From UHGV virus genome UHGV-0077717: 30,805 nt of DNA; one strand, written 5' to 3'. Of this stretch, positions 3,001-24,000 are shown piece by piece (the stretch's first letter is position 1; every line of letters begins with the position of its first letter). Source of the stretch: a virus. Made by a program: the position numbers.

Positions 3001-6000
3001 CTTGGATTTGTAGATCCACTTCTATCAGGAATATGCCCTTCCGGAGCATTCCATATTATCTCCGTATCAGGCATATCAATTGCCAGGTCGCCGCGTGTAA
3101 TTACAATATTGTTTGTTAGTATCAACTCTTTTATATTTGTTGTGATTTTTTTTGCTGGTGAGTTAATTGCTTTATGAAATGCTTCGGTGTTGTCAGCGCC
3201 ATCTTTAGCTCCGAAATCCTCAAGCATAACATTATATATATCATCTGATTTCCATACATTTCCTTCTGATGTGAAAATTATCGTTCCTCCGTTATCTGTC
3301 AATCCATCAGGATTAACACTACGGAAAAACCTTCCACCTCCTGAATAGCTGTCAGAGTAATATCCCCTCAGTCTTATAACCTGTCCATCATAACTTGGTT
3401 CAATTGTTCTCAATGTAGATATATCTTTGCATTCTCCTATATACTTATAGCCATCATCACTTTTCAGCAAATATGAAAACTGATCTGGATCGTACTTCAG
3501 CACATTAGGGAAATAGAACTGCTGTGATCCATATGCATCGTACACAGCCATAGAATGCCCTTGTACAGTAACGAACTTAGCAATCTGTCCGTTATATACA
3601 GGATAACCAGCAGCGTTAATGATGATTGGTTGAGAAACAGGAACGTGAGAGCCGTCTTCGTTCTCTACATAAACCGGAATCTGGTTTTCAGTATTTACCG
3701 GGTCAGTGTCAATTTTACCGATATAAATTTTGCCATTGGCTACGGCTTTAAAAGAACGAGCCATAGTGAAGAGTTGCGAAGGCATCGATACGATCACATT
3801 GGCTGTAATGTCTGTCATTTAATTTGCTCCAGATGCAAGGAATCGCCGCAGCGTGGCTACGGTGAATTTTGGGCATAAAAAAAACCCAGCCGAAGCTGGG
3901 TCGTTGCGTTGGTTATCTGTCAGTAGTTATGTACTGAAGGAGGTAATTCTTTATTCTTAAGTCTCATCCATGCGGAAAGATTCGTTGGTCCGTCTGGTTC
4001 ATTAATATCAACATCTCGTGTGTGGTTTATTAAAACGTCTCTCGCCATTCCGATAACATACGAGAATTCATGACCGTAGTCGTAGCATCTGCCGGAATAG
4101 TTCGATTGAATTTGTTTTAATGCCGGATACAGTTCGCGGAATAATGCCTGTGAGCGGTTGGCATAATCCCATAACCATACAAGGCTGTTTGCTTCTTTTG
4201 CAGAAAGCTCGTTGGTTTTCTTCTCTTGTTTGCCGATGAACTCTCCTTCAAGCGGAACGCGAGCTGCAAGTGACAGTGCTTCGGTAAACTGCTCCTCACT
4301 AATTTCTTTGTACGAACATCCAAAATGGGATTTCAGTGACGACCACATGGTGATCATCGCCTTAGCCTGTTTTTCTTTTGGCAGAGACTGACCGCGACTC
4401 ATGACGAGTTGTTTAATGGCTTCCTGCTGTTCAGTGGTGATTTTACCCGGCAACGCCTTTTTAGCTTTGCGTGGGTTAACTACATGGCCTTTAGTCCAGT
4501 ACTCGTAGAGCACATCGTCACACTCTTCCTGATACTGGATTACCTTGTCGCGGATTTCAGGGCGGACTTTGTTAGGGCTGATGGTTTGCAACCAGCCATT
4601 CAGTTTACGTAAAGCAAGGCAAATCATGGTCTGCACACCGCCAACTGAAGGTATTGCGATTTCCACAATACCTTTAGCAAATCTTTGTTTTAACTTTGTA
4701 AACTGTGAAGCCCAATCCATACCCATTCCCTCAACGATAGGTTTCATTGGGGTATACGGTTCGCCGTTGTGATTGACAACATAAAGCTCTGCGCCGTGGA
4801 ATGGTACATTGATAGTAGATGCTGCTGTTGCTATACTTTTCATGTCAATATTTCCTAAGACGATTTGTTGATACCGAAGCCCTGACTGTTCCAGCAGTTG
4901 GGGCTTCACTGTTTTTGTAAGTCACTGTAGCTATAAAGCCACTGACCACTCATTTTTGATTTGATTGACTCTACTGAGTCACGGCAAGGAATGATTCCGC
5001 CTGACATCATTCTGATTTCCGTAAATTCACCACTCCTTATCGATTCAATGCCATCAATGTTAACTAAAGATTTACCTCTACCAAGTGCATTCTCATAGCC
5101 AATCTCATCAACCTCAATAAACCTCATACCGTTATCCCCTCTCTCTTCAGGCTGTCCAACACCCGTTTAATTACTTCTGCGCTGAATGAGCGACACTCTT
5201 CCTTTGCTTTTTCTTCAAGGATTTTTTCTAGCTTCTCTGGCATACGCAGTGTTTTTACCTTCATTGCATCCTCCGTTGTATGTGGTACGCATACATAGTA
5301 TTTAGGTACGCATTGATAGTCAATAGATACCTACATATCCTGTGGTAAAAAATTATTCAGGATGCGCCGATGTCTGATCGTAAGTACAAAAACCCTCAAG
5401 TGAATCTGAGGCTTCCTGTAGAGATAAAGGAACGTCTTATTGAACTGGCTGAGGCTAATTCTCGTTCATTAAATGCTGAGATGGTCGCGGCACTTGAAGC
5501 GTGGACCGAAAAAAACAAACACATTCAAGCGCTAGATCTTGCAACTATAGCATCGCGACTGATAGAGCTTGAGCATGATGTTGAGAAGTTAAAATGTATG
5601 CATGGCAATGGTGAAAAATGAAACGTATCGCTATCCTATTGCTCCTGTGTCTCTCGAGCATAGCTAACGCAGAAACAAAATCAGACGATAGCAGTTTTGA
5701 TGAAATACAAGGCCTCATGATAGCTTCTAAAATGGCTGGTATGTGTGGTGCAATCAAACAAATGGCAATATTCCAAGAATCTACAAACATGCCAGGTGGG
5801 AATGAATTCTTACAGAGATTCCTTACTACAGAGCAAGCAAGGCTCGGGATGACTCCGCAGCAATTTCTTGAAGCATGTCAGAAATCAATCTCTATTTATA
5901 CCACCTATTACAATATGAGCTCTGAGAAAAAATAGACTAGGATTTCAACGGCTTCCGCGTCCCTGAGTGATTCTGTTGCGGATTTGCTTCTTGCGGTGGT

Positions 6001-21000: not shown

Positions 21001-24000
21001 GTGAATTTTGAATAGCTCAAGCTTCAGCTCGTCAGTGCCAATGAACTGAAATGCTTCTTCTGCGGCTGCGTTCTGGTTCATGACCAGTTTGTAAATCTCT
21101 AACTGGAATTTCTGTTCTTCAGTCATGGGAATAATCTCTGCCATTGTTGGCTCCGTTTATCCGTTAAAAGGGATATCAGTTAAGATATCCCGTGCAGGGT
21201 ATAAGCCATTGTCGAGACCACTCATTGAATGGTCTCTGCAATAACCGATGTCTTTCCATCAGTCCGCCACCACAAAGAATCTTTTTTGCCATAAGGCTGG
21301 AGGTTCATCTTTCAGTGGCTGCCAGTGTTATTTCCCCACTTTCTGGCTTGGGTTGTTTCGCTGTACTGCCGCAACTGGTGGTGCACAGATTTAGTTAAAT
21401 CTGTTCTCGCCTGAACTATCTTTTACATACCCGGATTGTGGGGATGTAAATCACGGTTTCATTATCAAGCCCACCCGTAGATGGGCTTTGGAATGGTCAC
21501 TTTGGCAGTCCTGGGATCGATATTTGCGCCTGCTGCTCAAGCCTTTCGATTCTTGCTATGAGTTGCGGTTTTTTGATCCTGCCCCAGCGGTTCAGCAAGC
21601 GTCCTGACATACTGGCAACATCCTTTTCCTTCATGAACTCCAGCATTAACTCGTTGTGCTCTCTTTGGTATGAGTGAGCCATCTCCATCAGCCTGTCACG
21701 CATCCAATTAAATGCTTTGATAAACGCCTCTTTGATGGCGGCAGCTTTTTTGCCGGTAAACGACATGATGATGTACATCGCGCCGTCTTTGGAAATTTCA
21801 TATTCAACATACTGATTACCCTTGTGTTCATAGGTAACCCGCGAAAAGTTGCTGGTTAGAAATTCATCCGAACAGTCTAGCTTTTCGATTTTCTGAATGA
21901 TGTGGTGATGCTGCTTGTCGAAGTAAGCTGCTACCTTGCGGGAGGTTGTGATCACGCGATCACCAGAAACAACCACCATGTCCCGGAAATCGAGATTAGC
22001 CAATTGATGATTCATAGCGTCTTTACCTTTTAGAAAGTGAGCCTGTCTCACAGAAAAGCCGCCCCGAGATGGTCGCCACCATATACGGCAGTTCTCAGGC
22101 TCAACTTTCTGAAAGGCTCGGGTGATGTAATATGCGCGTGAGATGCGCTGTGAAATTCAGATGTAAAAAAAGCCCCGCATCGCGAGGCTCATTAAATGGA
22201 CTTTGTGATTTGCAAAAAAATTATTTCAGGCATTGCGTCCTGATGTATTCCTGCAGGTAGTTAACCTGCGCGGTTATCCTGTCGATTCCACTTCGGAGAC
22301 GGTAATAATTGAGTTCAGCATCTGCTGTAAGTCTTGGGCTTTCTCCATCGCCCATGCCGCTGGCTCCGGTCGTTGACTTTGCACAGGTGGCGGCGACTTG
22401 CAGGCGCTTACGACCAGCAGAAACATCAGCACGGAGACTTTCGATAGTCGCGTTAGCATCAGCAAGCTCCTTTGTGTATCTGGCGTCGAGTTCTGCTACA
22501 TCACGTTGACGCTTCCGCATGTCAGCGATGGTGGCGTTCGCCTTCTCCAGTTCTCTGGCATTTTTGTCGCGCTGGGCTTTGTAGGTAATGGCGTTATCAC
22601 GGTAATGATTAACAGCCCATGACAGGCAGACGATGATGCAGATAATCAGAGCGGAGATAATCGCGGTGACCCTGCTCATACCTCAATCTCTCTGACCGTT
22701 CCGCCTGCTTCTTTGAATTTTGCTATCAGGCTGTCAGCCTTATGCTCGAACTGACCATAACCAGCGCCCGGCAGTGAAGCCCAGATATTGCTGCAACGGT
22801 CGATTGCCTGACGGATATCACCGCGATCAATCATCGGCAAAGCGCCACGCTCTTTAATCTGTTGCAGTGCAACAGCGTCCTGGCTTTTCGGAGAGAAGTC
22901 TTTCAGGCCAAGCTGCTTGCGATAGGCATCCCACCAACGGGAAAGAAGTTGGTAACGTCCGGCGGCTGTTGATTTGAGTTTTGGGTTTAGCGTGACAAGT
23001 TTGCGAGGGTGATCGGAGTAATCAGTGAATAGCTCTCCGCCAACAATGACGTCATAACCATGATTTCTGGTCTTCTGACGTCCGTTATCAGTTCCCTCTG
23101 ACCACGCCAGCATATCGAGGAACGCCTTACGTTGATTATTGATTTCCACCATCTTCTACTCCGGCTTTTTTAGCAGCGAAGCGTTTGATAAGCGAACCAA
23201 TCGAGTCAGTACCGATGTAGCCGATGAACACGCTCGTTATATAAGCGAGATTGCTACTTAGTCCGGCAAAGTCGAGAAGGTCACGAATGAACCAGGCGAT
23301 AATGGCGCACATCGTTGCGTCGATTACTGTTTTTGTAAACGCACCGCCATTATATCTGCCGCGAAGGTACGCCATTGCAAACGCAAGGATTGCCCCGATG
23401 CCTTGTTCCTTTGCCGCGAGAATGGCGGCTAACAGGTCATGTTTTTCTGGCATCTTCATGTCTTACCCCCAATAAGGGGATTTGCTCTATTTAATTAGGA
23501 ATAAGGTCGATTACTGATAGAACAAATCCAGGCTACTGTGTTTAGTAATCAGATTTGTTCGTGACCGATATGCACGGGCAAAACGGCAGGAGGTTGTTAG
23601 CGCGACCTCCTGCCACCCGCTTTCACGAAGATCATGTGTAGAAGGCCGCAGCGTAACTATCACTGATGAATTCAGGATAGCCAGTGGCTACGGCTCAGTT
23701 TGGGTTGTGGCGGTCGGTGCTGAACTCCGACTTAATGACGATAGGCGTGTACCGACGCCTCGTTTTACTTCCTCCGCTTTCACGGCTTCACCCTAGACCA
23801 GCTTTACGAAATCCTCGTAAACCTAACCGCGGCAGATATGACCGGCACGGTGTGCCATATCACGGACCGGCGGGTGTCTCGTTCACCTGATTAACGCATC
23901 AGCCTGCGTATTCACCACAACGATAAGAGCACTGCGCGGCACCTTTCACCAATTCCGCGAGGTCTGCGGGTTCAATGCTCTTACCTGTTGTGCAAATAAA

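What the first reader, a model, noticed from the sequence alone, without database searches (positions are those of the whole stretch)
3877..22189. Repeated intrinsic terminator hairpins inside the late operon, several placed immediately before the next gene's ribosome-binding site
At least five hairpin-plus-U-tract elements occur on the minus strand within what should be one Q-antiterminated late transcript: after Rz (22166..22189), before the 80-aa ORF (21165..21191), after coat (14441..14462), after the lipoprotein (6144..6168) and after ant (3877..3901). Two are followed within about 15 nt by a strong Shine-Dalgarno of the next gene. The pattern suggests graded expression (for example high coat output) and insulation of moron or early promoters, with read-through depending on Q.
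Basis: seen in the sequence. Interest (0 to 1): 0.4.

Follow-up and report, generated by a model that had tools for sequence, protein, structure and literature searches.

The report
Known terminators inside P22-like late operon
Four of the five reported hairpins are genuine transcription-stop signals inside the late operon of a P22-like E. coli phage, but the same signals are conserved, and two of them already annotated, in P22, Sf6 and HK620, so the finding is correct and ordinary.

Summary
The window is a P22-like (Lederbergvirus) E. coli phage or prophage with its late operon on the minus strand.

**What is there**
- Four of the five hairpins are canonical intrinsic terminators: T1 22190-22165, T3 14465-14441, T4 6168-6144 and T5 3902-3877. 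They have GC-rich stems, dG of -14 to -16 kcal/mol, z of -4 to -5, and at least 6 U.
- A strict scan gives 6 sites on the minus strand against 0.375 ± 0.55 in shuffles.
- T2 (21191-21166) is weak. It has only four U, and its perfect stem occurs in this window alone among 84 loci.

**What is already known**
- T5 matches the annotated P22 ant terminator.
- T3 is the annotated post-coat stem-loop or terminator of P22, Sf6 ("t coat") and HK620 ("tGP5").
- T4 closes a lipoprotein moron whose mobile block runs from its -35 hexamer to the end of the U tract.
- T1 follows the lysis genes. It is conserved in P22, HK620, CUS-3 and 58 of 77 loci, but unannotated in those three records.

**How it probably works**
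Q here is phage-21-type, whose "nozzle" blocks terminator hairpins. Late transcription should therefore read through, while unmodified polymerase stops. Insulation is supported; graded expression is untested.

Verdict: already known, low interest.

The parts
24056..24574 (-). Late antiterminator gene Q, phage-21 type (172 aa)
   Evidence: Pfam Phage_antitermQ, E = 1.3e-25. Matches PDB 6P18/6JNX Q21 at E = 2e-90 / 8.5e-91 over residues 1-162.
24049..24078 (-). Late promoter PR' (TTGACA-18-CATAAT). The putative Q-binding element AATTATCC/ATTTAGCC lies at 24069-24054.
   Evidence: 11 of 12 promoter match. Near-identical to the annotated PR'/qut region of Sf6 and to CUS-3. The repeat sequence equals the QBE proposed for phage L. 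Coordinates.
23998..24040 (-). Leader terminator tR' (39-nt hairpin followed by U6)
   Evidence: dG -20.2, z -4.6. Identical to the element annotated 't R'' in Sf6.
22165..22190 (-). T1: intrinsic terminator 30 nt after the Rz stop and upstream of rha
   Evidence: dG -14.1, z -4.3, U7. The same stem with different loops occurs in P22, HK620, CUS-3 and APC_JM3.2, and in 58 of 77 loci that carry Rz. A mosaic block starts at 22189 in 18 loci.
21166..21191 (-). T2: hairpin before orf80 with a short U tract; weak and probably not a terminator
   Evidence: Followed only by UUUU. The perfect 8-bp stem occurs in the window alone among the 84 orf80-bearing loci. The majority form has an A·A mismatch and dG -8.3. 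Other variants break pairs without compensation.
14441..14465 (-). T3: post-coat terminator (the 't coat' / 'tGP5' equivalent). It lies 5 nt after the coat stop, and the SD and ATG of an 87-aa ORF follow.
   Evidence: dG -14.9, z -4.0. Present after coat in every locus that carries a coat match. Present at the same 5-nt spacing in P22, Sf6/HK620 and CUS-3, and annotated there. Present in 4 of 5 distant coat homologues.
6141..6654 (-). Lipoprotein moron: promoter-like site 6653-6625, lipoprotein gene 6606-6175, terminator T4
   Evidence: In 9-11 other loci the shared block spans exactly query 107-620, which is window 6654-6141. Promoter-like site is a 9 of 12 match. phrog_6823, with a lipoprotein signal sequence.
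6144..6168 (.). T4: bidirectional terminator, 6 nt after the lipoprotein stop. On the plus strand it faces the mnt transcription unit.
   Evidence: Minus strand dG -16.2, z -5.0, U6. The plus-strand hairpin with TTTCATTT was found by both scans. Loop variants GTCA/TTCA/ATCA occur with an invariant stem.
3877..3902 (-). T5: t_ant, the terminator between ant and the tailspike gene
   Evidence: dG -14.1, z -4.1, U8. The hairpin is identical to P22 16012-16035, annotated 'terminator' of ant; the only difference is one extra U. Also present in CUS-3 and HK620, where it is annotated 'tANT'.

Best explanation
T1, T3, T4 and T5 are genuine Rho-independent terminators that punctuate the late operon of a P22-like phage at module boundaries. 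These boundaries are the end of the lysis cassette, the end of the packaging/procapsid module after coat, the end of a lipoprotein moron, and the end of the arc-ant immunity unit before the tailspike gene.

They act on ordinary, unmodified RNA polymerase. Transcripts that start at the moron promoter or at P_ant, that leak past tR', or that start spuriously are stopped. Downstream late genes therefore stay silent in the lysogen and early in infection.

In the lytic cycle the phage-21-type Q protein loads at the QBE in PR'. It travels with the polymerase as a nozzle on the RNA exit channel, so hairpins cannot form there and all the terminators are read through to the tailspike gene.

Shown here: the anatomy, the statistics, the conservation and the identity with annotated elements. 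Inferred: actual termination, and Q-dependent read-through at these particular sites.
For: - **Canonical features and stability.** Shown. Excess over shuffles is 6 against 0.375 ± 0.55.
- **T5.** It is identical to the annotated P22 ant terminator. From my own knowledge, not checked with the tools: Berget, Poteete and Sauer (1983, J Mol Biol 164:561) showed that this terminator limits gene 9 expression from P_ant and is read through by late transcription.
- **T3.** It is annotated in P22 (stem_loop 6102-6119), Sf6 ('t coat') and HK620 ('tGP5'). It sits 5 nt after the stop codon in all four Lederbergvirus coat types despite different stem sequences. It is present in PfAn1, Sortsne, IME279 and STP9, whose coats are 25-31% identical.
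- **T1.** The stem is invariant while the loop varies (GAU, GGU, AUUC, AUUU, AGAU, AGUA) across 58 of 77 loci.
- **T4.** It ends a mobile block that begins at the -35 hexamer.
- **Mosaic boundaries.** The terminators coincide with mosaic block boundaries.
- **Q.** Q is Q21-type and PR'/QBE/tR' match Sf6. The Q21 nozzle prevents terminator hairpins processively over tens of thousands of nucleotides.
- **Independence of Q type.** The same internal terminators occur in phages with lambda-type Q (P22, HK620, APC_JM3.2) and with 21-type Q (window, CUS-3).
Against: - No transcript data exist for this phage. Termination and read-through at these sites are inferred.
- T3 and T4 begin only 5-6 nt after a stop codon. 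At that distance a trailing ribosome almost fully repressed lambda tR2 in vivo. They may therefore terminate poorly on well-translated mRNA even without Q.
- For T1 and T3 no specific Q-independent promoter upstream was identified, so what they insulate against is not defined.
Confidence: 0.7

Rival explanations
1. The terminators are partial attenuators that work even on Q-modified polymerase. Each removes a fraction of late transcripts and so sets a descending gradient. In this view, high scaffold and coat output is followed by low output of head-completion and injection proteins.
For: - T3 sits exactly at the boundary between high-copy proteins (scaffold, coat) and low-copy proteins.
- Its position is conserved across coat types and in distant phages.
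- The phage L paper lists partial termination as one possibility.
- A terminator downstream of the major capsid gene is reported for the SP6-like phage UAB_Phi78. From my own knowledge, T7 has T-phi after gene 10.
Against: [quoted passage not shown]
- The tailspike gene lies downstream of all four terminators, so cumulative attenuation would starve it.
- T3 is 5 nt from the stop codon, where ribosome occlusion suppresses termination.
Confidence: 0.15
2. On the Q-modified transcript the hairpins act after transcription. They form once the RNA has left the nozzle and protect the 3' ends of processed mRNA segments from 3' exonucleases. They could also act as 5' hairpins for the next cistron. Segment-specific stability, especially of scaffold-coat mRNA, would then set the protein ratios. 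This can coexist with the insulator role.
For: - T3 and T5 carry extra-stable C(UUCG)G tetraloops.
- The conserved placement is stop codon, 5 nt, hairpin, U tract, then SD of the next gene. This fits a segment boundary better than an efficient terminator.
- Other conserved hairpins without U tracts lie in the same operon. One shows compensatory changes in 5 of 16 pairs.
Against: No processing sites or decay data are available. UUCG loops and this geometry are also common in plain terminators. The U tracts are well conserved, which a pure stability element would not need.
Confidence: 0.12
3. The hairpins are passengers or recombination joints. They mark places where modules were exchanged and persist because they came with morons, with no role in the late operon itself.
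For: Mosaic block boundaries coincide with T1, T3, T4 and other hairpins. T4 clearly travels with the lipoprotein gene.
Against: - T3 lies between two core genes that are always adjacent, and it is retained in every locus that carries a coat match.
- In unrelated-sequence form it is retained in phages whose coats are only about 25% identical.
- The T1 stem is invariant while its loop drifts, which indicates selection on the hairpin.
Confidence: 0.03

Closest known systems
P22 t_ant (terminator between ant and gene 9; BK000583 16012-16035)
   Same: Identical hairpin GACCCAGC-UUCG-GCUGGGU and the same flanks. It occupies the same position between ant and the conserved tailspike leader.
   Different: One extra U in the tract. 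The upstream immunity region carries an extra 73-aa ORF between arc and ant.
Post-coat stem-loop or terminator of P22-like phages: P22 stem_loop 6102-6119, Sf6 't coat' 6147-6173, HK620 'tGP5' 25827-25853
   Same: GC-rich tetraloop hairpin plus U tract starting 5 nt after the coat stop, followed by the RBS of a small ORF (orf69, gene 6 or hkbT).
   Different: The stem is GGGAGC/GCUCCC rather than GGGGC/GCCCC. By tblastn the window's coat is 73% identical to the P22 coat and 25% to the CUS-3 coat.
HK620 'tORF59A' bidirectional terminator and the P22 mnt terminator in the ant moron region
   Same: A bidirectional terminator between the rightward late genes and the leftward mnt unit, in the variable region between gene 16 and the tailspike gene.
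   Different: The sequence is unrelated. Here it is the 3' end of a lipoprotein moron that P22 and HK620 lack.
Morons of lambdoid phages (a promoter-gene-terminator cassette inserted in a late operon; Juhala et al. 2000, from my own knowledge; the term is used for this region in PMC2629481)
   Same: The lipoprotein block has a promoter-like site, one gene and a terminator. It is present in only 14 of 87 loci and has sharp boundaries.
   Different: Promoter activity was not tested; the match is 9 of 12.
Q21 antitermination system (PDB 6P18; Yin, Kaelber and Ebright 2019)
   Same: Q is a close homologue (E = 2e-90). A promoter-embedded tandem 8-bp element and an immediately adjacent tR' are present, as annotated in Sf6.
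   Different: The QBE repeats are the phage L/Sf6 version (AATTATCC/ATTTAGCC), not the phage 21 sequence.
T7 T-phi after gene 10, and the SP6-like terminator after the major capsid gene
   Same: A terminator directly after the major capsid gene inside a late transcription unit (for UAB_Phi78/SP6; T7 from my own knowledge).
   Different: These phages use a phage RNA polymerase and have no Q-type antitermination. Partial termination is established for T7 but not here.

Membership tests
Intrinsic (Rho-independent) terminator | Stable GC-rich hairpin | tested here: met
   dG -13 to -16 kcal/mol and z -4.0 to -5.3 for all five; none of 200 shuffles folded as well.
Intrinsic (Rho-independent) terminator | U-rich tract of about 7-9 nt immediately 3' of the stem | tested here: met
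   T1 has U7, T3 U6, T4 U6 and T5 U8. T2 does not meet this feature: it has UUUU followed by AACGG.
Intrinsic (Rho-independent) terminator | Transcript 3' ends at the U tract in vivo or in vitro | not testable with these tools
   No RNA data were available, and literature searches found none for P22-like late operons.
P22 t_ant | Same sequence and position as the annotated P22 element | tested here: met
   P22 16012-16035 equals window 3901-3877 apart from one U. Flanks are identical on both sides.
Post-coat terminator of P22-like phages (t coat / tGP5) | Hairpin plus U tract directly after the coat stop and before the small ORF that precedes gene 4 | tested here: met
   There are 5 nt between stop codon and stem in the window, P22, Sf6/HK620 and CUS-3. 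The element is annotated in three GenBank records.
Moron (promoter-gene-terminator cassette) | Cassette present in some relatives and absent in others, with sharp boundaries that include the terminator | tested here: met
   The shared block in 9-11 loci is window 6654-6141. Another 11 loci share only the gene 16 side. The lipoprotein is present in 14 of 87 loci.
Moron (promoter-gene-terminator cassette) | Own functional promoter | tested here: inconclusive
   TTCACA-17-TAGGAT is a 9 of 12 match at 6653-6625. Promoter-like sites are not enriched over shuffles in this region.
Q21-type late antitermination | Q21-family protein encoded just upstream of the late promoter | tested here: met
   E = 2e-90 to PDB 6P18 chain P. 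Pfam PF06530.
Q21-type late antitermination | QBE in the promoter and a promoter-proximal terminator | tested here: met
   95% mean column identity with the annotated PR'/qut/tR' of Sf6 and with CUS-3.
Q21-type late antitermination | Q-dependent read-through of the downstream terminators | not testable with these tools
   Inferred from the published Q21 mechanism.

The most novel reading that the evidence does not exclude
The conserved geometry is stop codon, 5 nt, hairpin, U tract, then the next SD. It may make T3, and T4 likewise, a translation-gated element. Under this reading it is silent when a ribosome closely follows the polymerase, terminates only untranslated or uncoupled transcripts, and on the Q-modified RNA serves as a segment boundary for differential mRNA stability. 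Together with the covarying U-less hairpins at 21246-21204 and 21488-21467, the late transcript would be partitioned post-transcriptionally into modules with different lifetimes. That partition would set virion protein ratios.
Probability: 0.15. Interest if true: 0.4.

Novelty: already known. Interest (0 to 1): 0.12.

Why it matters
The result confirms that late operons of P22-like phages are punctuated by real terminators that only antiterminated polymerase passes. This is useful for annotating prophages and for predicting which late-region genes (morons, ant) can be expressed in a lysogen.

Three small additions come from this work:
- The post-lysis terminator T1 is widespread but unannotated in the P22, HK620 and CUS-3 records.
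- The lipoprotein cassette is delimited to the base as a moron.
- The post-coat terminator keeps a 5-nt spacing from the stop codon across coat types. This makes the open question of its role (insulator, attenuator or stabiliser) easy to test.

None of this changes current understanding.

Tried and rejected
- **Loose energy-based scan.** My first terminator scan returned 44 minus-strand and 73 plus-strand hits and did not discriminate. I replaced it with a strict perfect-stem scan with shuffles.
- **T2 as a terminator.** Rejected. It has a short U tract, and its perfect stem is unique to the window. Substitutions in other loci break pairs without compensation.
- **Intragenic site in gene 3 (20571-20543).** Not a late-operon terminator. 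It lies inside a translated gene, at the position homologous to the P22 pac site.
- **Terminator at the end of the operon.** None was found within 125 nt after the tailspike stop on the minus strand.
- **T4 as a homologue of the HK620/P22 mnt-region terminators.** The sequences are unrelated.
- **Rfam.** Only sar RNA passes threshold in the whole window, and nothing matches at E ≤ 1 in 20850-22300. There are no tRNAs.
- **Literature.** Searches for transcript 3'-end data on P22-like late operons and for the Berget 1983 paper found nothing in the held library. The P22 genome papers are not held.
- **Close viral-contig loci.** All have nearly identical coat genes, so they give little covariation for T3. 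I used P22, Sf6, CUS-3 and distant phages instead.

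
Full report
**Identity of the window**

Megablast of 3000-23000 finds P22-like phages. The best hits are Escherichia phages APC_JM3.2, IME10 and Bas106 at about 95% identity over 60% of the query, and P22 itself at 81%.

Annotated relatives, Pfam and PHROGs give the following gene order on the minus strand. Intervening genes were placed from ORF coordinates and synteny with P22.

| Feature | Coordinates |
|---|---|
| primase/helicase | 30450-28057 |
| nin genes | between primase/helicase and Q |
| Q | 24574-24056 |
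| holin | 23459-23136 |
| lysozyme | 23152-22676 |
| Rz | 22679-22221 |
| Rha | 22051-21497 |
| orf80 (DUF2560) | 21144-20902 |
| terminase small and large subunits, portal, scaffold | between orf80 and coat |
| coat | 15766-14471 |
| 87-aa ORF | 14429-14166 |
| homologues of genes 4, 10, 26, 14, 7, 20 and 16 | ending at 6690 |
| lipoprotein | 6606-6175 |
| 61-aa ORF | 6130-5945 |
| mnt-like gene and a 105-aa ORF (plus strand) | 5370-5935 |
| arc-like gene | 5264-5124 |
| 73-aa ORF | 5127-4906 |
| ant | 4843-3920 |
| tailspike | 3818-1371 |

The sar antisense RNA lies on the plus strand at 4845-4910 (Rfam RF00262, 62 bits).

**The late transcription unit**

- Q is of the phage 21 type. It matches PDB 6P18 at E = 2e-90 and 6JNX at 8.5e-91, over residues 1-162.
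- The promoter TTGACA-18-CATAAT at 24078-24049 is an 11 of 12 match.
- It contains AATTATCC/ATTTAGCC, the element proposed as the Q-binding site in phage L.
- It is followed at once by a 39-nt hairpin plus U6 (24040-23998, dG -20.2).
- This whole stretch is nearly identical to the annotated PR', qut and tR' of Sf6 and to CUS-3.

**Check of the observation**

All five hairpins are present at the stated coordinates.

| Element | Coordinates | U tract | dG (kcal/mol) | z | Verdict |
|---|---|---|---|---|---|
| T1 | 22190-22165 | U7 | -14.1 | -4.3 | canonical |
| T2 | 21191-21166 | UUUU then AACGG | -13.0 | -5.3 | weak |
| T3 | 14465-14441 | U6 | -14.9 | -4.0 | canonical |
| T4 | 6168-6144 | U6 | -16.2 | -5.0 | canonical |
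| T5 | 3902-3877 | U8 | -14.1 | -4.1 | canonical |

- For every hairpin, none of 200 shuffles folded as well.
- T2 was not picked up by either scan.
- The strict scan required a perfect stem of at least 6 bp, at least 4 GC pairs, a loop of 3-8 nt and at least 6 T in 8. It finds six sites on the minus strand against 0.375 ± 0.55 (maximum 2) in 200 dinucleotide shuffles.
- The six sites are T1, T3, T4, T5, the early-operon terminator at 28031-28004, and one site inside gene 3.
- The tool's permissive scan is not informative in total count (23 against 14.8 ± 4.5, and 20 against 17.8 ± 3.9) but ranks the same sites first.

**Comparison with relatives: T5 and T3**

T5 is the P22 ant terminator. P22 16012-16035, annotated as the terminator of ant, has the same hairpin and flanks, with one U fewer. 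CUS-3 and HK620 carry it too; HK620 labels it 'tANT'.

T3 corresponds to three annotated elements:
- the P22 'stem_loop 6102-6119; similar in location to stem-loops in phage HK97 and phage lambda';
- the Sf6 'stem-loop that is likely to be a transcription terminator; t coat';
- the HK620 'consensus termination sequence following major capsid transcript; tGP5'.

In all four Lederbergvirus coat types the stem starts 5 nt after the stop codon and the RBS of a small ORF follows, although the stems differ: GGGAGC, GGGGC and UGGGGC. Every locus carrying a coat match has a strict terminator after coat.

Among five phages whose coats are only 25-31% identical, four have an unrelated hairpin plus U tract directly after the coat gene. 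These four are PfAn1, Sortsne, IME279 and STP9. RSK1 does not.

**Comparison with relatives: T1, T4 and T2**

*T1*
- A terminator with the stem GCCUCGC/GCGGGGC lies after the lysis genes in P22 (39468), HK620 (17962), CUS-3 (23891) and APC_JM3.2. It is found in 58 of 77 loci that have Rz.
- The stem is invariant while the loop varies: GAU, GGU, AUUC, AUUU, AGAU, AGUA.
- It is not annotated in the P22, HK620 or CUS-3 records.
- It is present whether or not rha follows; L078 is an example without rha.

*T4*
- In 9-11 other loci the shared block runs from window 6654 to 6141. That is from the -35 hexamer of a promoter-like site to the last U of the terminator.
- Eleven loci share only the gene 16 side.
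- This is the structure of a moron. On the plus strand the same hairpin is followed by TTTCATTT and faces the mnt unit.
- It is therefore positionally analogous to HK620's bidirectional tORF59A and to the P22 mnt terminator, but its sequence is unrelated.

*T2*
- The region is highly conserved in sequence, but 83 of 84 loci lack the window's perfect 8-bp stem.
- The majority form has an A·A mismatch (dG -8.3).
- Other substitutions break pairs without compensation.
- I do not count T2 as a terminator.

**Terminators and mosaic boundaries**

Homology blocks among the loci end or begin at these positions:

| Window position | Feature | Loci |
|---|---|---|
| 22228 / 22220 | Rz stop (block end) | 43 / 9 |
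| 22189 | start of T1 (block start) | 18 |
| 14432 | just after T3 (block end) | 16 |
| 21495 | at a U-less hairpin (block start) | 36 |
| 21245-21247 | at a U-less hairpin (block start / end) | 21 / 23 |

The terminators are thus part of the modular architecture, as already discussed for this phage group.

**Mechanism**

[quoted passage not shown] It prevents pause and terminator hairpins and stays topologically linked to the RNA over tens of thousands of nucleotides. Q-lambda uses an analogous nozzle.

The same internal terminators occur in phages with either Q type. This fits a generic block to hairpin formation rather than site-specific control.

The best-supported model is therefore as follows:
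- Unmodified polymerase stops at these sites. This covers leak-through past tR', the moron promoter, P_ant and spurious starts.
- Q-loaded polymerase reads through to the tailspike gene.
- For t_ant this was shown experimentally in P22 (Berget, Poteete and Sauer 1983). I cite that from memory; the paper is not in the held library.

The 'graded expression' idea remains open. The phage L authors list it alongside insulation and say the roles are not known.

Arguments against strong attenuation:
- the absoluteness of the Q nozzle;
- the position of the tailspike gene downstream of all four sites;
- the 5-6 nt spacing of T3 and T4 from the preceding stop codon. In vivo, lambda tR2 was almost fully repressed at such distances and reached about 0.9 efficiency only beyond 30 bp.

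By that measure T1 (30 nt) should be fully active on unmodified polymerase, T5 (17 nt) intermediate, and T3 and T4 translation-gated. A post-transcriptional role as mRNA segment boundaries is possible but untested.

**Verdict**

The phenomenon is already described and annotated for P22, Sf6, HK620 and phage L.

New details from this work are minor:
- an unannotated but conserved post-lysis terminator;
- the exact limits of a lipoprotein moron;
- a conserved 5-nt stop-to-hairpin spacing after coat.

Noticed in passing
window 21204-21246 (minus strand), with a related copy at 21467-21488: A roughly 16-bp hairpin without a U tract lies upstream of T2/orf80 and shows real covariation across 16 variants. 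Five pairs change on both sides and stay paired, and there are almost no broken pairs. A related hairpin followed by GATAATG sits right after the rha stop, and Sf6 has the same two copies. Both lie at mosaic block boundaries. No Rfam match was found. The role is unknown; candidates are an RNase III or processing site, or a recombination 'boundary sequence'.
   Followed up: partly
window 20543-20571 (minus strand), inside the small terminase gene: A terminator-like hairpin, AACCUUCCGG-UCAAU-GGAAGGUU followed by UUUUUCUG, has dG -13.3. Its U-rich tail aligns with the 22-bp P22 pac site: offset 268-289 of gene 3, GAAGGTTTTTCTGACGTCACAT here against GAAGATTTATCTGAAGTCGTTA in P22. It is shared by 26 loci. 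It is more likely a DNA packaging-site feature than a terminator.
   Followed up: partly
window 4845-4910 (plus strand) and 4906-5127 (minus strand): sar antisense RNA (Rfam RF00262, 62 bits) with its long terminator hairpin at 4876-4907. Unlike P22, a 73-aa ORF (phrog_11805, unknown function) lies between the arc-like gene and ant. sar is therefore antisense to the end of that ORF and to the ant RBS.
   Followed up: partly
window 23579-23614 (minus strand): A second hairpin lies in the late leader, about 125 nt upstream of the holin start: GGCAGGAGGU, a 10-nt loop, ACCUCCUGCC, then GUUUUG. Its U tract is weak. The whole 600-nt leader is 98.7% identical to CUS-3 and lacks the tRNA genes that Sf6 has at this position.
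   Followed up: partly
window 28004-28031 (minus strand): A strong terminator (dG -15.7, U5AUUU) lies directly after the primase/helicase gene and before the nin genes. It occupies the position of tR2 in lambdoid early-right operons and would need N-type antitermination.
   Followed up: no
window 1250-1375 (minus strand): No canonical terminator was found on the late strand within 125 nt after the tailspike stop. Only an AT-rich stretch is present, and a weak hairpin overlaps the stop codon. The end of the late transcript is therefore not defined by an obvious intrinsic terminator.
   Followed up: no
window 6175-6606 (minus strand): The moron gene encodes a 143-aa lipoprotein. It has a signal sequence with a Cys lipobox, a sub-threshold PEGA match, belongs to phrog_6823 of unknown function, and shows a faint N-terminal similarity to the Cor exclusion protein. 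It occupies the position where P22 has sieA, so it may be a superinfection-exclusion candidate.
   Followed up: no
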